Positions 30,617-42,900 of a stretch of DNA of 64,000 bases are shown one piece after another. Position 1 is the first letter of the stretch; each line of letters opens with the position of its first letter. A program made the translations under genes and the position numbers. The notes beneath the pieces were generated by a model. That model did not search any database. It was not told the DNA's origin and saw nothing but the letters and a program-made list of their open reading frames with translations. The DNA is from the human T2T-CHM13v2.0 reference genome, Homo sapiens: the NCBI RefSeq assembly GCF_009914755.1, contig NC_060932.1. One strand, written 5' to 3'.

Positions 30617-32686
30617 TTCTCTAACACTTCAGAAATAGACTGTATTATCCATATTATTATGACACTCTAGGGCTAAGGGAAATTTTATAAAATTGGCCTC
30701 ATGTCATTCAATTTGTAATTCATAAATGTAACACGAGCTAGACAATTTCAGTTTACAGCCTGATGACAACAGATGCAACATTCCAAAGTGATGTCACTTT
30801 TTTGAAAAGTGAATGGTCCTACTTTTCCCCGGCCTATAACCTTTCAGTGGATTCCCATCATTTTTAGACTGAAGTATAAGGCTTACAAGGCCTTTCCAAT
30901 TCTTTGCCTTTCTCCCCCACCTCATTTTTTCGGCACTCCCTCTTCTTTCCCTTTCCCACCTGATGGCCTTATCTGGCATCCCTAATATTTAGCCTGTTGC
31001 TCCTATAGCCAAGAGCTGAAAGGCTTCATGATTTGTTCTTTACCAAATGTGTTATCTACAGTAAGGAGAGTGGAGAAACCTAGAAAGCAGGATTTTGGTT
31101 AGAATTCTATAAAACCCTCAGATATCCCATCTAGAGTTGACTTTTTAAGATGTATGGGATGTGTCATTCCTCCGGCCTACATATTGATGTCAGCAAATTA
31201 AGAAATGGTCTCCCAGCCCCCATGATCCTGGCAACTGCATGTGTCCCCTGATGGCCAGCTGCCACAGGCAAGAGTAAAGGGCCAGAGAGCTGTGTGATCT
31301 TGGCAGCTCCTTTCTCCTGCCACCCTTTCTCCTAATACCGATGATGTCAGCACTTCAATCTGCCTAGGAGAAAATCGTACATTGTAGTACATGACCCCTT
31401 GTTTGTCTTTCTGCCAGTTGCCCAAAGAATCCCCAGACTCCTAGATCATCACTCAAGACTTGAACTCTTGGCCATATAGTCTGGTGATGCCAGCGGCCAT
31501 GGTGTCTGATACTTGAGTTTTGCTCTGGCCGTGGTTCATCTGGTTTTGTGCACCTTGGCTTCAAAGTTCTTCTAAAGCTAACCTCACAGTCAGATAGCTG
31601 GATAAGTGATCAACAGCAGCGTTACCTGAAGTCTTTATGTATCTTATCTGTGCACTATCATCCTTTTCCATAAATGTAGGTTGAGGCCTGAATACTAATT
31701 CAATCTCACTACCACCGTCCATTTCTGAATCAATGGCAAATGTTGCATTGTCAATATCAAGCTCAAGCCCAGAATCAGCAGATGTTTTGTTCCATTTGTG
31801 ACTATGGCCTGTTTCCTTGTTGTTCTGTGTGGATGCATCACGACAGTGCAAACCGTCAGCATTCTTCTCTTCTTCTCTGCTACCATTTTCAGTCTATTGT
31901 TTCTTGCCTCACTATAATCTGCTCCTGACTGGTGCTTTCAGTCCTTCTTCAAAGCTGAGACTGAGTGCTCACTGATTACTGTGCTTGTGGATGCTGGCTA
32001 ATACTCTCTCTCCAAGAGCTTCATACTCATCACGACGTGGGTAAATTTTGCTGATGAGTGCATCAAACATTTTAGACTAAAGTATAAGGCTTACAAGGCC
32101 CTTCCCAATTCTTTGCCTACCACCCCACCTCATTTTTGTTAGCCCTAGCTCTTTTTTTCCTTTCCCACCCTGTGGCATTTTCTGGCATCCCTAACATTGA
32201 GCCCACTGCTGACACCACCAAGAGCTGAAGGATCCCTTTAGTGATCTTTTGGAAACTAGATTTTTTTTTTGACAGGTAGGGTGTTTTTTGCTGTCATTTC
32301 TAAGGACTGTGATGATGCAGACTGCACAAAAATGATGTAAACACTCCTTTATGGTCATGGTGTCTTTCAACACATCCAAACAAATTAGACCTTATTTCAC
32401 TCTGTAGACTTTGAGGTGAAGCCACAATTTCTAAGCCATCTGTTACTGCCTCTTCAGGTGTTTGTTTTCATTCATATAAACTGAACACTCATGTTTTGGT
32501 TAATGGTTGAGATCCATTTGTTTGCACAGCCTGAGACATTACAGCTCCTGCCCCCAGCCCAATTTTCTTTTTGACCTAGACTGGTTTACACTATTCAAAT
32601 ATTTTCCCCTTAATTTATGATTTTCTTTTTGGAAAGGACTCCGTTTTCAGTACCTTTTCTTTTCTCTTAAAAATATGGCTAAGTTT

Positions 32687-33000
32687 GGCCAGGTGCAGTG
32701 GCTCATGCCTGTAATCCTAGTACTTTGGGAGGCCGAGGCAGGCAGATCACTTGAGGTTAGGAGTTCGAGACTAGCCTGAACAACATGGTGAAACCCCGTA
32801 TCTATTGAAAATACAAAAATTAGTCTGTCCTGGTGACATGCACATGTAATTCCAGCTACTTGGGAGGTGAGGCATGAGAATCTCTTGAACCTGAGAGGTG
32901 GAGGTTGCAGTGAGTCAAGATAGTGCCACTGCACTCCAGCCTGGGCAACAGAGGGAGACTCCGTTTCAGAAAAAAATTAATTAATTAATTAAAACAAAAA
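32687..33000 (+). mobile_element. Alu in the pseudogene 3' UTR
   Basis: Alu dimer with degenerate AT-rich tail. Confidence 0.9.
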
Positions 33001-33474
33001 AAATATATATATATATATAAGTTCTTTTCCACAAAGTTTGGTTCTATTTGAAGTATACTTCTGGCCCAGAAATTTTTCATAGTTCTGTACTCTTAAGTAA
33101 AGATTTAATTGGCCATCCTTTCCCCTTTCCCCCTCAAAAGGTCTTTAGGCCTACAGAATGTTATATAATACGTATTCTGACTTTTTTCCCTAGAGTCTTG
33201 TATATTTTCTTTTCTATATAAACTGCAGTATCTTCATGAAGACTAAGGGTCAAATTTACTATGCTTAAAGACAATTTTCATAGGATTATTCTTTCCATAG
33301 TATTTTCTTCCATAATTTTCTTATTTTAGAAACAAGTGTTTATTGAGTTAGTGTCCATTGTAATGCAATGTTATTATTTTTTTTTCCATTCTTTTCCCTT
33401 GTAATTTTGGAATTTCTGGTCCTGGAAAGAGAATCAAACAAAATCTTAATGTTAATCTATGAGAAATTGGTTCA

Positions 33475-33895
<421 letters not shown>

Positions 33896-33997
33896 TTATT
33901 TATTATATATGTTTGATTTTTTTCCTATTAAAATACCAGATATATGGAGACATTTGACACATTAGCCTTGATGAAAAGTATAAGATACGTTTAAAGT

Positions 33998-34313
<316 letters not shown>

Positions 34314-34363
34314 CTATTTTTTTTTTTTATTGGTAGCCACATAAGTTTCAAGAATAATATGGC

Positions 34364-34675
34364 GGCCAGGCACAGTAGCTCATGCCTGCCAGCACTTTGG
34401 GAGGCTGAGGCTGGTGGATCACCAGAGCTCAGTAGTTTGAGACCAGCCTGGCCAACATGGTGAAACCCCATCTCTACTAAAAAGACAAAAAAAAAAAATC
34501 CGGGAGTGGTGGCGGGTGCCTGTAGTCCCAGCTACTCAGGACACAGCTGAGGCGGGAGAATCAGTTGAACCCAGGAGGTGGAGGTTGCAGTGAGCTGGGG
34601 ATGGTGCTACTGATCTCCAGACTGGCAACAGAGGGAGACTCCATCTCAAAAAAAAAAAAATAATAATAATAATGA
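34364..34675 (+). mobile_element. Alu in the pseudogene 3' UTR
   Basis: Alu dimer with (AAT)n tail; TSD aataatatgg. Confidence 0.88.
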
Positions 34676-35465: not shown

Positions 35466-36832
35466 AAAAATAAAGGGAAATATTCAATTCCTTTTCTGAT
35501 GTAATGTAAGTTGTATAGATTACTAATGCATGTCCCTGGTTTTGTGATAAAACTTCTTAGGTTTTATTGATGACGTTTTAGATTCATAGTTGTGTTAAAT
35601 CAGTTAAATAGATTCCCGTTGTGAATATTAATTGAAATTTTGTCTTTAAGCAGAGAGTTATTTATGAATACAAGCTCTGTGCCTAGAGAATGTATGTGTT
35701 TTTATCTGGTAGTATGGAAGGATATAAACTACATCATTAGTGAAAAACAAAAAAAAAGACTTGAACTCTTTTCCCTGTCTCCTATCCTTCCTGAACTACT
35801 GAAAATCCTCTCTTGCAGCCTCTGGAGCTCATGGTGCATCACTGGTAAATTCCTTAGGGACCTCCTCTGATCCTCTTCCTTCTTGCTCTGACCAAAATCA
35901 TGATCTTATCCGAGAATACTGCCTCCCTTGTAGCTCTATCAGTTGGCATCTATTTTCATTTCATTAAGCTCTGTAACGCTAGGCCTGGGGGTAGAGTACC
36001 TGCTCACCTTGCTCACTGCCACATCCAGACTAGTGTCTCTTCCTCCTTCTGAAAATGCCCTGGCTTTGCAGCTCATGCCATTAGTCTATATTACTCACTA
36101 GCCCTCCTTAGCGCAGTCGTCTCCAGGCCCTGTCCTGCTCTCCACGTTAATGGAAGATGTTGGCACCTGCCCTGCCACTCTGTCCAACACTCCTGTTATA
36201 ATTCTAGATCTTTAGTATCCACACAGATAATCCTTCCAATATTTGGCTTCTTTTTTCCTTGTCTGCCTCTTCTACATTGACCTTGTGCCAAGACCAGCTC
36301 AGTCATGGAGACCCTAACCCAGCAGCAGTAGAGAAATTAAAGACACACACACAGAAATATAGAGTGTGGGGTGGGAAATCAGGGGTCTCACAGCCTTCAG
36401 AGCTGAGGACCTTGAACAGGGATTTACCCACGTATTTACTGACAGCAAGCCAGTCATAAGATTTCCTAAAAGTATTCCTTATGGGAAATAAAGGGACTGG
36501 CCAAAATAAAGGGATGGGCTCTGGCTAGTTATCTGCAGTATGAACATGTCCTTAAAGCACAGATCACTCATGCTATTGTTTGTGGTTTAAGAATGCCTTA
36601 AGCGGTTTTCTGCCCTGGGTAGGCCAGGTGTTCCTTGCCCTCATTCCAGTAAACCGACAACCTTCCAGCATGGGTGTCAAGGCCATCACAAACATGTCAC
36701 ACTGCTGCAGAGATTTTGTTTATGGCCAGTTTTGGGACCAGTTTGTGGCCAGATTTTGGAGCCTGTTCCCAACATGTTCCCCTTCTTTGTTTTGCAAAGC
36801 GATAAGAGCAAAGGCAGCTTTGTCACTATGAG

Positions 36833-37111
36833 CTACTTCTTGCAGGAGTCAGGATCTGCATCTGCAGAGGCAATGGTGATCGCTGCTATCATAGCTACCA
36901 TTAAATTACTCATTGTGACTGGTTGTCCTGCTTTCCTCAGGTTTTCTTCTGCCATCTGTGACAGCTTCTTGATCTGTCCCCAGGTGGATGGCTGTGTTCA
37001 ACGGGTGTTGCTTGTGACAGTTGGGGTCCTCCTCAGAGTCATTCTCCACATGGCTGCAACTGGGGGGAGCTCGGGATCCTCCTGGAATCTCTTCCTCAGC
37101 ATCTGTTTCAT
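36833..37111 (-). pseudogene. Rec-like reading frame (env leader fused to a short terminal exon), one internal TGA
   Basis: Hand translation MKQMLRKRFQEDPELPPVAAMWRMTLRRTPTVTSNTR*TQPSTWGQIKKLSQMAEENLRKAGQPVTMSNLMVAMIAAITIA|SADADPDSCKK*; parallels HML-2 Rec PPTWAQLKKLTQLA...MIVSMV|SAGVPNSS. Confidence 0.7.
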
Positions 37112-38510
37112 GGTAAGGTTTCAGGTGTCTCAATGGTATCCAAATTGGCTGTTGATTTTGGCCTGGAGAAACACAAGCATAACCTCTACCCCAAATTATT
37201 ATTTTACCTATTTCCCAACTTTTTGTTATTGGATCTCTCCACCAAACCAGTTGTTCTGCTTCTGTCTTTGCAGCTGGTTTCTGTAGATGCTGTTAGCATC
37301 TGGCCTTTAGGCAGGCAGGCTCAAAAAATTTAAGGTTAATAATGCTAGATTCCATTGCATATGCAGTGTTCCATAGTCCCTGTTTTCCCGCCTCTGCTTT
37401 TGCAACTTCTGTTTCACGGAGAGATTCATTCTTTCCACTATGGCTTGTCCTTGAGAATTATATGGGATACCAGTAATGTGTTTAATATTCCATATAGAGA
37501 AAAACGTAGCTAGAGCTTGGCTAGTATGGCCTGGGGCATTATCTGTTTTAATAGAAGCTGGAATGCCAATCACCACAAAACACTGCAAAAGGTGACGTTT
37601 AACACAGGCAGAAGACTCTCCTGATTGGCATGTAGCCCAGACAAAGTGAGAAAAGGTGTCCACACATACATGTATGTAAGCTAGACTCCCAAACGAGGGA
37701 ACATGTGTGACATCCATTTGCCAAAGAGAATTAGGTTCCAATCCTCGAAGATTAACTCCTGTAAAAGATGAGGAAGGTACCATTTGGCAAGTTGGGCATC
37801 ACTGGATAATAGCTTTAGCTTCTTTCCAAGTAATGCTGTATCTGTGTTTGAGACCACAGGCATTAACACGGGTTAAATTGTGAAAGTGTCTAGCATTAGA
37901 TATCACATTAGCAACTAGGTGATCAGCCACTTGATTCCCTTCAGTCAAATGTCCTGGAGGAGGTGTATGAGCCCTAATGTGAGTGATGTAGAAAGGGTGC
38001 ATTCTACTCCTAACTGCTGTTTGCAATTGGGTAAATAAAGTCATCAGTTGTTCATCTGTATGAAATAGTAACTGAGCATTTTCAATTAACTGTGTGGAAT
38101 GAATCACATATGAAGAATCAGAAATCACATTAACAGGCATATTAAAAGCAGTCAATACCTCAATTACAGCTACAAGCTCCATTTTTTGAGCTGAATTATA
38201 GGGTGTCTGGAAAACTTTACTTTTTAATCCAGAATAAGAAGTTTTACCATTACTAGACCCATCTGTAAAAATATTTTCAGCACCTTCAATTGGTTTAAAT
38301 TTAGTTATTCTAGGGAGGATCCAATTAGTTAATTTCAAAAATTGAAACAGTTTCATTTTAGGAAAATGATTATCAAGAATTGTTCAGTAACCAAGTCCTC
38401 TAAAGCCTCCATTTTTCTCTTTGCTCAGCGGCCATTGTTCTATCCAAATTGGCTTATATGTTAACCATTTTAAAGGTATAGGTTCTGGAGGCTCAACAAT
38501 GGCCACCATC
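36906..38510 (-). pseudogene. pol: HML-3 pol remnant: RT start, deletion, RNase H, integrase
   Basis: WPLSKEK near 38430 joined to LDNHFPK; FTDGSS; WQMDVTH, KTDN and IVER (DDE motif). Confidence 0.9.
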
Positions 38511-39400
38511 AAAAATGATATCCTAAACCTTGATGAGAACTTTGTCTTTCTGCTTGAAGCGGTTCCTTTAAACCCTGCAAATTTTTTCCTAGTCCCATAC
38601 CAGGGACATACCGCATTTCATGCATCATATGTTGACTTTGAGGGCTGTATAATTGTTCAGCAATTAGAACTTGTGCTCCCCATTGTTGTAATAAATCTCT
38701 CCCTCATAAATTTATAGGTACAGAAGTTATAATTGGTTGAATAGTCCCAGGTTGTCCATCGGGGCCTTCACAATGCAAAATATAACTACTTTGATATACT
38801 TCAGGGCCTTTACCAACTCCAACTATGTTAAATTGAGTGGGTTAAATTGGCCACACAGATGGCCAGTGCTGTAGAGAAATGAATGAAATGTCTGCTCCTG
38901 TGTCTACCAAACCTTTAACTTTCTTACCCTGAATAGTTATTTCACAGGTAGGATGTTTATCAGTAATTTGATTTACCCAATAAGCTGCTTTGCCTTGTTT
39001 ATTTGTGCTTCCAAATCCTCCTGCTCGTTTAATTTCACTTTTCCCCATTTCCACATACAGCACTATCAGGAGCTGTGCTATGCGCTGTCCTGGCTCTGCT
39101 TTCCAGGGAACAGAAGTAGATATAACAATTTGAATTTCCCCATTGTAATGTGAATCAATGATTACTGTTTGTACTTAAATTTAAACTAGACCTTCCTAGA
39201 AGTAATCCTATCGTCCCCACTGGCAAGGATCCACAGACTCCTGTTGGAACTTTTTGTGGGGTATTCCCAGGCAGAAGGCTCACAGCTTTTGTGCAGCATA
39301 AATCTATTGCAGCACTGCCAGCTGTGGTAGGGGACAGACATTGTACAGGGGTAAGGAAATGGCCTGAGCCAGAAATGCCCCGGTTTGGAATGGGGCCTGG
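38510..39400 (-). pseudogene. pro: HML-3 dUTPase-protease remnant
   Basis: RAGGFGST (dUTPase motif V) and GLVDTGAD. Confidence 0.88.
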
Positions 39401-39848
39401 GATGGGCCCCTCATGGCATTTCCTGAATTTAAAAGGAAAAGTCTCAAATGTAGCTACAATATTTCCCTGTTAATTGGGTGGGTGTATTCTAACAGGGAAC
39501 TGCCAAGCCTCTAAATCACCCTCTCTTCTAGCTTGTGGGATTCCTGCCTGAATAGAACTGAGAGCGGTCATTCGAGGTGCTGCTCGAACAGTCACTGGGC
39601 AACTACTTTTTGCCCAGTGTCCTCTGGAAAAGGAATTCTGGAGGGTCAGGCCACTCTTTATCTTCAAAATCCGGAAGGGTTGCAGAAGGGTAGGGATGAA
39701 CCTCTTCCTCCTTTGCTGTTTTAGCTTTAGCTGGCAAACAAACCTGCTCTGATACTTCTTCTGTTACTTTGTTATACTCTCCTTCCTCTGCATCATTAGT
39801 GTGAAAAGTTTCCAAGGTGGAATGAACCAAAGCCCACACTTGTCCCAT
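39400..39848 (-). pseudogene. gag: HML-3 gag remnant (MA to start of CA; remainder deleted)
   Basis: MGQVWALVHSTLE... and EGDLEAWQFPV. Confidence 0.85.
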
Positions 39849-39970
39849 TGTTACCCTGATGCTTCCAAGATCCCCTTCTTACTTACCATGGGGATTGCTT
39901 TAAGAGTACTGGGCTGTCCTCCAGTTTAGTTCTGTGATCTCCAACGGTTGCTCTGGCGACCCTTTGACCT

Positions 39971-39998
39971 GGGTTCGAGCCCCCACGTATGGACGCCA
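39971..39998 (-). promoter_or_regulatory. Primer binding site, tRNA-Lys(CUU)
   Basis: tggcgtccatacgtgggggctcgaaccc, 2 nt after the 5' LTR. Confidence 0.85.
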
Positions 39999-42900
39999 CT
40001 TGCCGAGACCAGCTCGGTCATGGAGACCCTAACCCAGTGGCGCTAGATGAATTAAAGACACACACACACACAGAAATATAGTATGGAGTGGGAAATTAGG
40101 GTTCTCATGGCCTTCAGAGCTGAGAGCCCCAAACACAGATTTACCTACATATTTATTGACAGCAAGCCAGTCATAAGATTTACTGAAAGTATTCCTTATG
40201 GGAAATAAAGGGATGGGCTGAAATAAAGGGATGGGCTCTGGCTAGTTATCTGCAGCATGAACATGTCCTTAAGGCACAGATCGCTCATGCTATTATTTGT
40301 GGTTTCAGAACACCTTAAGCAGTTTTCCACCCTGGATGGGCCAGGTGTTCCTTGCCCTCATTCTGGTAAACTGACAACCTTCCAGCATGGGTGTCAAGGC
40401 CATCATGAGCATGTCACAGTGCTGCAGAAATTTTGTTTATGGACAGTTTTGGCACCAGTTTATGGCCAGATTTGGGGGCCTGTTCCCAACAACCTTGTCC
40501 CTCACATAATCTCTGCTGCTTATAACTCTAGTTATATTCTACATCTGTCTTTAGAAATATCTTGTTTCCTCTCCATAATGTCAATTTTAAGAATGCCACT
40601 CTTTGACCAATGCTTCCTACCCATCTAAATCAACTTCCTTCATGTCTGAGCTCCCAACACTTCTTTGACCTCACTGGGGTTTACAGTCCTTTCAATCTCC
40701 TATAGTCATTCATGTTCTCACTTTCTGTGTCACCCCATTTAGATGTCGTGTTGTGTGATGGTAATTACTCCTTTGCCTATACTCTCAACTACCTTGCCTC
40801 CTTTTCCTCCTCTGCAGACAATTGACTGAGGTTGGAGAAAAATGCTGACTGGCTTTATTTTAAGTTGACAATCACTAACCCCAAGTAAACTTTAGTGCTG
40901 CCTGGCAATCCCGCTCTCTTTTCCAGTATTCATCACTTTCCCACTCTCCTAGATGATTATTTTCCCTTCCCTGCTCTCCACCACCATCTCCATCATTATT
41001 GTTCTCAGCTGGTGACCTTGGTCTCTAATCCACTGAGAAAATGGAATCAACCACTGAGTCTCTACCAGCTCGATGGTATTCTAACACTTGGCTGCTACTG
41101 GGATGAGTGTGGATCAACTATTTGCTTTCCTAGCTAACGCCAAACCCTTCACTTGTCTACCAGACCCTATCCCCCATCATCAACTCAAAAATGCTGCTTC
41201 TGTTTTCTGATTCTTTCTCCTGCTTCAACATGTTTTCCCCACTGTATCAGATTATTCACACTGGCATACAGAAATGTTGGATGTCTTTCAACATTTATTA
41301 AAAACTTCCCTTGATGCCATTTTCCCCTTACCATTAAGTGTGAAGTCAGGTGTAGATACTCTTTACTGCGTTGAGGAAGCTCCCTCTGTTCTTAGTTTCC
41401 TAAGGGTTTTTACGATGAATGGCTGTGGGATTTTGCCAAATGCCTTTTCTGCATCAATAGAGATGATCAATTGATATGACCTTCTCTTTTTTCAATCTTC
41501 CACGTCTTGGCAAATGGCAACTTAATCTCTCCAGCCACTCAAGTTAAAAAACTTTAGTGTCACAGTTGACTTTGGTTTTTCTCCCATGTTCTATGTCCAA
41601 TTTGTTGGCAAAGCCTATTATCTCTAACTTCAAAATATATCCAAGGCTTGTCATGTCTCAGCCACTCCACTGCTACCATCCCAGTCAAAACCACCACCAC
41701 CTCTTGTGTAATGGTATCTATGCCCTATCTCTTTCTTCCATCTGAGTTTCACACTGTCAACTTTTCAATCTGGAAAATTAAGTCTGGAACTCTCAGCAAA
41801 CACTCTTGTTCTACTTTCTTCATTTATATAGCATAAATAAATGTTAGGACTTGTGGCATCTGAAATTTTCACGTGCTTAAAATTCTAAATTTCATAATTT
41901 TCTACTTTAATGGCTTCCTAAAGCAATGTCTCATGGCACACGTTCTTAAAATTCACTTTAAACTAGAACAATCTTTCAGTTGCTCAAATTAATACTTTTA
42001 GTTCAACGACATTGCCTTTCAGTGACAAAGTAAATTTAAAATAATTTAAGTGAAAGCAACAGAGGTTGAGTGAGGTTTTTCATGAATTCATTCACAGTTT
42101 GTGACAGTGCATGATTGTTCTCATGAATTCTGTTCATTCAAGTTTTGGGAAAAGGGTAATGAAAATGCCCTGCAAGGTCAGCCAATCCATTCTCTGTATC
42201 AGGGCAAAATATTTCTCTTCCAAATGAGCCCATCAAGCCTCTGCCATGCTGAGGCATCCATCCTGGATCTCAGCATGGCAGGGATCATTCAGGCTGTGGG
42301 AGCTGTCAGACCTTTTGATCTAAAGGCAGTTAAAAAAAATCCCACAGCAGCCCCACTCAACAAAGGCCATTTGTCTGCTTGACATCAAAATAGTCTAAGT
42401 TACAAGGATTGCAGTTTATCATCTTCATGGAGGGACTTTTTTCCCCTAGTTTGTCATTCCTCCCATCCAGCCATCTTACTAATATATCCAGGGTTTATCT
42501 GAGCATTGTATATTTTTTATTTCTTTGTGCTTAACTTTTCTGATGTTTGACTGCTTCCTTTCACTCATGCTGCGTCAAGAAGGAAGCCTGACTTCCCCTT
42601 TTCTGAGGCTATTAAAACTAAGTGAAAGGCATCTGACGTGGTCCTGCTTTCACTGCTGAGATGATAGCTTTTTTTGGGAAGTAATTTTTAAATTCTGTAA
42701 AGTCTATCATAAAAAAACACCAATTTATGCAACATAGAAAATTAAGAAACATTCTTATTTTGTAATAGTTCTTAACTTTTTAAAGAGAAAAATGAAAATT
42801 CACCATAAACTCAAAATTGTCTTTGTAACTCCCAAAGCCATGCCCCTCCCTCCTCTCTGGAGCATTTATGTAAGTTTAAATGAATCTTTCTAAGTCTTCT

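What the first reader, a model, noticed from the sequence alone, without database searches (positions are those of the whole stretch)
36833..37111. Fossil spliced rec-like gene in an HML-3 provirus
Seen: env is reduced to its leader joined at 36869|36868 (ATCACCATTGCC|TCTGCAGATGCAGAT) to the last ~90 nt before the 3' LTR. From ATG 37111 the join is in frame and gives 92 codons ending at TAG 36833. The only break is one TGA (36998-37000, CGT-TGA, consistent with CpG decay of CGA). Known: HML-2 Rec is the env signal peptide spliced at MIVSMV|SAGVP to a short exon starting TCTGCAG, with NES WAQLKKLTQLA. Here the equivalents are AITIA|SADAD, TCTGCAG, WGQIKKLSQMA and basic patches LRKR/LRR/TR(R). 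Inference: the deletion is a precisely excised rec intron, so ancestral HML-3 encoded a Rec/Rem-type RNA export protein. I do not recall that being established for HML-3.
Basis: partly seen in the sequence, partly recalled or inferred. Interest (0 to 1): 0.9.

Follow-up and report, generated by a model that had tools for sequence, protein, structure and literature searches.

The report
Intron-less rec-like gene in HML-3 provirus
An ancient, badly damaged HERV-K(HML-3) provirus has lost the inside of its env gene exactly between two splice sites that match those of the HML-2 rec gene, so it preserves an RNA splice made tens of millions of years ago and suggests that HML-3 also carried a Rec-type gene.

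Summary
A 4.2-kb HML-3 provirus lies on the minus strand (LTRs 40001-40491 and 36286-36774, 6-bp target duplication CAAGGT). In it the env leader (ATG 37111 to 36869) abuts the last 94 nt before the 3' LTR. All 39 other HML-3 loci scored stop matching at that join. In 29 loci read in detail the missing piece starts (G/A/T)TGAGT (GTGAGT in 11). In 24 of 25 loci it ends in a pyrimidine tract plus AG, directly before TCTGCAG. Both sites are positionally homologous to the HML-2 rec donor (after Env codon 87) and acceptor. The join has no microhomology, whereas a second, 691-nt pol deletion in the same provirus has 3 nt of microhomology and no GT..AG. The gap is therefore a precisely removed rec-type intron, most likely copied from a partly spliced RNA.

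The fused frame has 81 + 11 codons and one in-frame TGA. Its resemblance to Rec lies in the env leader only (Pfam HERV-K_REC 23 bits, below the 27.5 cut-off). The arginine-rich motif is weak, and export function is untested. No second intron-less copy was found. The open literature searched says nothing on an HML-3 Rec, and the key 2002 HML-3 paper was not available. Interest is moderate.

The parts
40492..40497 (-). Target-site duplication CAAGGT, upstream copy
   Evidence: the flank before the 5' LTR ends ...GAGGGACAAGGT.
40001..40491 (-). 5' LTR (MER9-type), 491 nt, TG...CA ends
   Evidence: aligns to the 3' LTR with 59 mismatches in 489 aligned sites (p = 0.121, K2P 0.134).
38842..39469 (-). 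dUTPase and protease remnants
   Evidence: Pfam dUTPase (6.9e-08 and 5e-05) and RVP (6.4e-11).
38509..38703 (-). G-patch remnant at the end of pro
   Evidence: Pfam G-patch, 8.5e-11.
38378..38380 (-). Junction of a 691-nt pol (RT) deletion relative to the closest relative L062. It has 3-nt microhomology (ATT) and is not GT..AG, so it serves as an internal contrast to the env gap.
37799..38383 (-). RNase H and integrase zinc-binding domain
   Evidence: RNase_H 2.7e-18, Integrase_Zn 1.2e-07.
37307..37798 (-). Integrase core
   Evidence: rve, 3e-21.
36906..37292 (-). Open frame holding the integrase C-terminal domain; overlaps the env/rec-like start
   Evidence: IN_DBD_C, 1.7e-08.
36869..37111 (-). 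Rec-like exon 1, which is the env leader: 81 codons from ATG 37111, ending at the former splice donor
36998..37000 (-). In-frame TGA (codon 38), the only break in the fused frame
   Evidence: In one search, of the 24 other copies with exon 1 in frame at this codon, 10 read a stop, 9 Arg, 3 Gln, 1 Pro and 1 Leu (5 of 29 are frameshifted upstream).
36868..36869 (-). Exon-exon join (...ATTGCC|TCTGCAG...), phase 0, no microhomology
36833..36868 (-). Rec-like exon 2: 11 codons (SADADPDSCKK) plus TAG, read in a frame other than env's
   Evidence: the same 12-codon frame ends in a stop at codon 12 in 24 of 25 other copies, one of which also has an internal stop.
36775..36793 (-). Purine-rich tract directly before the 3' LTR (polypurine-tract position)
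   Evidence: Read directly. The role is inferred from its position.
36286..36774 (-). 3' LTR, 489 nt
36280..36285 (-). Target-site duplication CAAGGT, downstream copy
   Evidence: the flank after the 3' LTR begins CAAGGTCAATGT.

Best explanation
The env gap is a precisely excised rec-type intron.

Shown: HML-3 carries a strong splice donor at the end of the env leader (GTGAGT after ...ATTGCC). It also carries a pyrimidine tract plus TAG acceptor just after the env membrane anchor. Both sit at the positions of the HML-2 rec donor and acceptor. In this provirus exactly the segment between them is missing. The element has two LTRs and a 6-bp target duplication, so it integrated as a retroviral provirus.

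Inferred: an HML-3 RNA that kept its 5' part, and so its packaging region, but had this downstream intron spliced out was packaged, reverse-transcribed and integrated in the germ line. The alternative is that the reverse transcriptase switched onto a co-packaged spliced RNA. LTR divergence of 12-13% puts this a few tens of millions of years ago.

It follows that HML-3 made a rec-type spliced RNA. Its reading frame joins 81 leader codons to 11 codons in a frame other than env's, the same design as HML-2 Rec (87 + 18).

Further inferred, not shown: the product acted like Rec, as a nuclear-export adaptor for unspliced viral RNA. The copy here is dead. It has one in-frame stop, and there is no evidence of expression.
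For: (1) The join is real. In one search, 39 of 39 other scored HML-3 loci stop matching at it.

(2) The donor is present in relatives. In some searches, 29 loci continue with GTGAGT (11), ATGAGT (17) or TTGAGT (1). The exon/intron dinucleotide is CG in 6, CA in 16, TG in 5 and other in 2, which is the pattern of a decaying CpG.

(3) The acceptor is present. In one search, TAG is found in 23, CAG in 1 and TAT in 1 of 25 loci, each after a T-rich tract and directly before TCTGCAG.

(4) The sites are homologous to HML-2 rec. In some searches, an HML-2 locus with a 699-aa env frame (L053) has the donor ATGGTG|GTAAGT after codon 87 and the acceptor ...TTGTTAG|TCTGCAGG. Its 18-codon second exon lies in another frame, and the intron is 1699 nt. 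This matches the description of Rec in PMC2649029 (passages read). The HML-3 donor lies at the same V|VS(L/I)P site, 12 codons before NYTYWAY. The acceptor lies at the same (L/I)VCRC site.

(5) There is no microhomology at the join. The pol deletion in the same provirus has a 3-nt microhomology and no GT..AG.

(6) Chance is small. In a relative's 1080-nt env region a random deletion would start GT and end AG with probability about 0.003. It would hit this exact pair with probability about 1 in 10^6.

(7) The provirus has TG..CA LTR ends and a CAAGGT duplication.

(8) The donor is widespread. GTRAGT is found at the same site in 16 of 20 other HERV-K-like loci. A homologous acceptor with a short other-frame exon occurs in two further lineages, L085 and L086.

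(9) The NES region (HML-2 residues 54-60 according to PMC2649029) aligns as KKLSQMA against KKLTQLA.
Against: Only one locus carries the junction. It was the only spanning match among 40 scored places. It was also the only true HML-3 hit among the pattern matches checked; the roughly 95 three-mismatch hits were not checked one by one.

The peptide scores below Pfam's cut-off for HERV-K_REC (23 against 27.5 bits), and that profile covers Env 19-105, which is leader sequence shared with Env. The second-exon peptide (11 residues) resembles HML-2's (18 residues) only in its first two residues.

The arginine-rich motif that Rec needs (residues 13-20, RRRRHRNR in L053) is only RKR here and in the other HML-3 copies. 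SERV-K/MER11 keeps a rec-like splice, yet its product showed no export activity (PMC11379458, passages read), so a conserved splice does not prove export function.

Seventeen of 29 copies carry ATGAGT. The CA:TG skew of 16:5 suggests that part of the family spread with a dead donor. No response element could be tested, and Rfam found nothing in 36000-40800.
Confidence: 0.8

Rival explanations
1. The splice is real but the product was not an export factor. HML-3 inherited the rec-type donor and acceptor from the common HML ancestor. The RNA was spliced there, and one such RNA became this provirus. The 92-residue product, however, had lost Rec function, never had it, or did something else.
For: The basic motif is weak, RKR instead of eight mostly arginine residues. 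The second exon is short and unrelated in sequence. sRec of SERV-K/MER11 keeps the splice without export activity (PMC11379458, passages read). Most sampled HML-3 copies belong to env-defective, partly gag-defective forms that spread in trans. The donor may have been dead in part of the family.
Against: The NES-region residues and the W-x-Q-(I/L)-K-K-L block are kept between HML-2, HML-3 and other HML groups at 35-49% overall identity. Splicing at this site removes the end of the hydrophobic core, and that region is what separates export-active Rec from the inactive signal peptide in HML-2 (PMC2649029, passages read). The exon-2 frame ends in a stop at codon 12 in 24 of 25 copies.
Confidence: 0.3
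2. The intron was removed after integration, or during reverse transcription by recombination, and not by packaging of a partly spliced genome. In one version a spliced HML-3 cDNA converted an already integrated provirus. In the other the reverse transcriptase switched from a genomic RNA to a co-packaged spliced RNA.
For: Both routes give the same exact join, and both need the same splice. The provirus shows at least one other template-switch-like deletion, in pol, with 3-nt microhomology.
Against: Nothing separates these routes from the main one with the data in hand. Conversion by cDNA is rare for single-copy targets (general knowledge, not tested here).
Confidence: 0.15
3. An ordinary genomic deletion happened to fall on these two sites.
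For: Other env deletions exist in the family, for example L029 and L059, which begin 62 nt after the donor. This provirus also has another large deletion.
Against: Those other deletions do not use the splice sites. The join here has zero microhomology and matches the best donor and the acceptor to the base. The chance is about 0.003 for any GT..AG pair and about 1 in 10^6 for this pair.
Confidence: 0.03

Closest known systems
HERV-K(HML-2) Rec (cORF)
   Same: The first coding exon is the env leader up to a donor inside the signal peptide's hydrophobic core. The second exon starts at TCTGCAG, just after the env membrane anchor, and is read in a frame other than env's. The join is at a codon boundary. 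Donor and acceptor are positionally homologous. The NES region is conserved.
   Different: The exons are 81 + 11 codons against 87 + 18. Identity is 35% over 51 aligned residues. The arginine-rich motif is reduced to RKR. The intron is about 790 nt in HML-3 relatives against 1699 nt, because HML-3 env is internally deleted. There are no functional data and no known response element. The window copy has a stop.
MMTV Rem and its signal peptide p14
   Same: It is an export regulator made from the long env signal peptide of a betaretrovirus through a second splice inside env (PMC2649029 and PMC3621094, passages read).
   Different: Rem contains the complete signal peptide (PMC2649029). That its second exon continues in env's frame is recalled, not checked here. 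No sequence comparison with Rem was run.
sRec of SERV-K/MER11 (macaque HML-2-like virus)
   Same: The rec donor and acceptor are kept although the second exon is of different origin and sequence (PMC11379458, passages read).
   Different: sRec's splice was seen in RNA-seq, and the protein was tested and found inactive in export. Here the evidence for splicing is a genomic fossil and nothing has been tested.

Membership tests
Rec/Rem-type (Rev-like) betaretroviral export gene | Coding exon 1 is the env leader, spliced from a donor inside the signal peptide to an acceptor near the end of env | tested here: met
   the donor and acceptor are homologous to HML-2 rec, and the window lacks exactly the segment between them.
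Rec/Rem-type (Rev-like) betaretroviral export gene | The second exon is read in a frame other than env's and gives a short C-terminus (HML-2 type) | tested here: met
   the env frame reads ...CLCIVCRCGS stop, while the spliced frame reads SAD(A/V)DPDSC(K/E)K stop.
Rec/Rem-type (Rev-like) betaretroviral export gene | Sequence match to Pfam HERV-K_REC (PF15695) over the curated cut-off | tested here: not met
   23.0 bits against a cut-off of 27.5 for the window peptide. Unspliced HML-3 leaders reach 30-37 bits, but the profile covers Env 19-105, including 18 residues that Rec does not contain. This test therefore measures env-leader homology, not Rec identity.
Rec/Rem-type (Rev-like) betaretroviral export gene | Arginine-rich nuclear localisation / RNA-binding motif (HML-2 residues 13-20, PMC2649029) | tested here: inconclusive
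   HML-2 has RRRRHRNR. The aligned HML-3 stretch has RKR, plus an RR further on. Motif strength was judged by eye only.
Rec/Rem-type (Rev-like) betaretroviral export gene | Leucine-rich nuclear export signal (HML-2 residues 54-60, PMC2649029) | tested here: met
   KKLSQMA aligns with KKLTQLA. This is sequence conservation only.
Rec/Rem-type (Rev-like) betaretroviral export gene | A cognate structured response element in the LTR, and CRM1-dependent export of unspliced RNA | not testable with these tools
   Rfam found no family in 36000-40800. No model of such an element is in the library, and a bench test is needed.
and (39 loci at 89-94% identity). No repeat library was available to confirm them.

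The most novel reading that the evidence does not exclude
The rec-type intron (donor GTRAGT at V|VS in the env signal peptide, acceptor YAG|TCT(G/A)CAG after the membrane anchor, short other-frame exon) is ancestral to the whole HERV-K/HML supergroup. On this reading HML-3 encoded a working Rec-like export factor about 30-40 million years ago. This locus would then be physical proof of that ancient splice: a reverse-transcribed snapshot of a partly spliced viral RNA that was still packaged.
Probability: 0.45. Interest if true: 0.55.

Novelty: new member of a known kind. Interest (0 to 1): 0.5.

Why it matters
In the papers I could read, Rec is treated as a feature of HML-2. HML-3 is one of the largest HERV-K groups, with about 140-150 proviruses (PMC3778440, Table 1 passage). 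No transcript of the ancestral virus can ever be sampled.

A provirus that lacks exactly the rec-type intron is direct evidence that this splice was used in vivo. Combined with the same donor in 16 of 20 other HERV-K-like loci, it places the complex (Rev-like) gene layout at or before the split of the HML groups. It also shows that an RNA spliced only at the downstream intron could still be packaged and integrated.

The practical consequence is modest. HML-3 loci with intact sites may produce rec-like spliced RNAs, and these should be considered when HERV transcripts are annotated.

Tried and rejected
1. Search for more intron-less copies. A 22-nt junction pattern with up to 3 mismatches gave 105 hits against 7 for the reversed control. 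The nine best non-window hits (L032-L040: eight with 2 mismatches, one with 3) are not HML-3. The other three-mismatch hits (about 95) were not checked. A junction-centred 188-nt query found only the window spanning the join (40 of 344 candidates scored).

2. An HML-2 locus with a 108-aa frame (L054) was suspected to be an intron-less rec. It is only an env with an early stop.

3. Search for HML-3 copies with a longer env among the four loci that lacked a nearby 3' piece. All follow the short form, with an insertion or a truncation.

4. Rfam scan of the provirus: no family found.

6. Mayer and Meese 2002 (Genomics) is not held. Seven full-text searches found no statement on an HML-3 Rec. No supplements were opened.

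The acceptor is therefore documented only in HML-2, HML-3, L085 and L086.

8. No structure prediction, complex prediction or large protein search was run. None would bear on the question.

Full report
WHAT IS THERE

On the minus strand of the window lies a 4206-nt provirus. Its LTRs are at 40001-40491 and 36286-36774. They have TG...CA ends and a perfect 6-bp target-site duplication, CAAGGT. The LTRs differ at 59 of 489 aligned sites (p = 0.121, K2P 0.134). That fits the age of about 36 million years quoted for HML-3 in PMC3778440 (Table 1 passage). The conversion of divergence into years rests on commonly used rates that I recall and did not compute.

Between the LTRs Pfam finds dUTPase, protease, G-patch, RNase H, and the integrase zinc, core and C-terminal domains. 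Gag is mostly absent and the RT domain is gone. No repeat library was available. What the tools do show is a multi-copy family at 89-94% identity.

From ATG 37111 the frame runs 81 codons to ...ATCACCATTGCC (36869). It continues without shift into TCTGCAG... (36868) for 11 codons, to TAG 36835-36833. There is one in-frame TGA, at 37000-36998.

I searched the window's own genome with 36775-37200. All 39 other scored loci align only up to the join (40 of 404 candidates scored). In 25 of 29 loci read in detail the 3' piece follows after 150-795 nt, mostly 650-795. The four loci without a nearby 3' piece are the same short form, interrupted by an insertion or truncated.

THE ENDS OF THE MISSING PIECE ARE SPLICE SITES

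After the last leader base the 29 relatives read GTGAGT (11 loci), ATGAGT (17) or TTGAGT (1), followed by ATTCC. The dinucleotide across the boundary is CG in 6, CA in 16, TG in 5 and other in 2. This is the spectrum of a decaying CpG, so the GT donor is the older state of that site.

Before TCTGCAG, 24 of 25 loci have AG (TAG 23, CAG 1), preceded by ...TGTGTTGTTTGTCTTTGTA. A TTTTAAT stretch about 25 nt upstream could serve as branch site. That is read by eye and not tested.

The join itself has no microhomology. By contrast, the other large deletion that separates this provirus from its closest relative is 691 nt in pol. That relative is L062, which is collinear from the 5' LTR to 38378. The pol deletion has a 3-nt microhomology and is not GT..AG.

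Two other family members have env deletions that begin 62 nt after the donor, so not at splice sites. In a relative's 1080-nt env region a random deletion would start GT and end AG with probability about 0.003. It would fall on this exact pair with probability about 1 in 10^6.

HOMOLOGY WITH HML-2 REC

PMC2649029 (passages read) states that Rec is Env residues 1-87 plus 18 residues from another frame, spliced just upstream of the signal-peptidase site. An HML-2 locus with a 699-aa env frame (L053) shows the following:

- The donor ATGGTG|GTAAGTCTCCC lies after codon 87.
- The acceptor is ...GTCTGTTGTTAG|TCTGCAGG.
- The 18-codon second exon is in another frame.
- The intron is 1699 nt.

The HML-3 donor lies at the same V|VS(L/I)P position, 12 codons before NYTYWAY. 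The HML-3 acceptor lies at the same (L/I)-V-C-R-C position after the membrane anchor.

The Pfam HERV-K_REC profile turned out to cover Env 19-105. Profile position 69, where the window peptide's leader ends, is therefore exactly Env 87.

The same GTRAGT is present at this site in 16 of 20 other HERV-K-like loci sampled from the weaker PF15695 hits. The remaining four read GTAAGC, ATAAGC and ATGAGT, and one is deleted.

Two further lineages also have a homologous acceptor and a short other-frame exon of 11 and 18 codons. They are L085, an HML-3-like copy with near full-length env, and L086, a different HML group. PMC11379458 (passages read) reports the same donor and acceptor in use in a macaque HML-2-like virus whose second exon derives from HML-8.

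HOW IT MOST LIKELY AROSE

The element has complete LTRs and a target duplication, so it was made by retroviral reverse transcription and integration, not by LINE-type retroposition. The simplest route starts from an HML-3 RNA that kept its 5' part but had the downstream intron removed. Such an RNA would have been packaged and copied. The alternative is that the reverse transcriptase switched onto a co-packaged spliced RNA.

Post-integration conversion by a cDNA cannot be excluded. All three routes need the splice. A chance genomic deletion is very unlikely.

The source element was already defective. The short 5' half is shared with L062 and L064 at other genomic sites. That implies spread with help in trans.

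WHAT IS NOT SHOWN

That the product worked like Rec is inference. Several points weigh against taking it for granted:

- The window peptide scores 23 bits against HERV-K_REC, below the 27.5 cut-off.
- BLASTP against HML-2 Env 1-105 gives 35% identity over 51 residues, E = 8e-07.
- All of this similarity lies in the leader that Env also contains.
- The NES region (HML-2 residues 54-60 according to PMC2649029) is well kept.
- The arginine-rich motif (residues 13-20) is reduced to RKR in HML-3.
- The second-exon peptide shares only its first two residues with HML-2 Rec.
- The macaque sRec shows that a conserved rec-like splice can go with no export activity (PMC11379458).
- The 16:5 excess of CA over TG at the donor CpG hints that part of the family spread with an inactive donor.

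State of the gene in the family: exon 1 is fully open in 13 of 29 other copies. Five of the 29 are frameshifted before codon 38. Of the other 24, 10 read a stop at that codon, as the window does, 9 read Arg, 3 Gln, 1 Pro and 1 Leu.

NOVELTY

Seven full-text searches of the open library and passages of six papers gave no statement about a Rec-type gene or rec-type splice sites in HML-3. The papers were PMC3778440, PMC11379458, PMC2649029, PMC12884080, PMC4724089 and PMC3621094.

PMC3621094 notes that Rev-like proteins are widespread among betaretroviruses, so a specialist would not be astonished. The one dedicated HML-3 paper (Mayer and Meese 2002) is not held and may bear on this. No supplements were opened.

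I therefore file the finding as a new member of a known kind. Its nicest aspect is the genomic fossil of an ancient splice.

VERDICT

The intron-excision reading is strongly supported (about 0.8, and above 0.95 that splicing was involved in some way). Rec-like function is plausible but untested (about 0.45). Interest is 0.5.

Noticed in passing
L002 and 24 other HML-3 loci; L087 = G000:C16:10451500-10455500 (minus); L085 = G000:C13:19869500-19874300 (minus): The usual HML-3 env is an internally deleted env. It aligns to HML-2 Env 41-107, 177-345 and 578-687 only. L087 keeps the first missing piece and carries a 415-aa open env-derived frame. L085, at 75-84% nucleotide identity to HML-3, has a near full-length env in one tblastn match.
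   Followed up: partly
L065-L084 (20 HERV-K-like loci elsewhere in the genome): The site equivalent to HML-2 Env 87|88 reads GTRAGT in 16 of 20 loci. Val-Ser is always encoded GTR AGT. The rec-type donor therefore looks common to the HML supergroup.
   Followed up: partly
L002-L030, exon/intron boundary: The donor CpG has decayed to CA in 16 copies but to TG in only 5. The skew suggests that part of the family was copied from a source whose donor was already inactive.
   Followed up: no
window 38378-40491; L062 (G000:C4:100412000-100421900) and L064 (G000:C8:138023900-138033800): The window provirus shares a short 5' half, with gag mostly absent, with proviruses at other genomic sites. This points to a defective subfamily that spread with help in trans.
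   Followed up: partly
window 37163-37180 (minus): A pyrimidine tract plus CAG lies 52 nt upstream of the env ATG, and is conserved between the window and the HML-2 locus L053. It is a candidate acceptor for the first (gag-pol) intron of env/rec RNAs. It was not checked against published HML-2 splice maps.
   Followed up: no
L029 (G000:C9:143896180-143899511) and L059 (G000:C5:45243000-45243800): Two HML-3 copies have other large env deletions with the same left end, 62 nt after the donor. That is the place where the standard form has its first internal env deletion. It may be a recurrent breakpoint.
   Followed up: partly
window 32684-34669: Several direct-repeat families of 120-195 nt occur at spacings of about 440 and 870 nt (D1, D4, D6). 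They lie next to the annotated RING2-like pseudogene. They were not examined.
   Followed up: no
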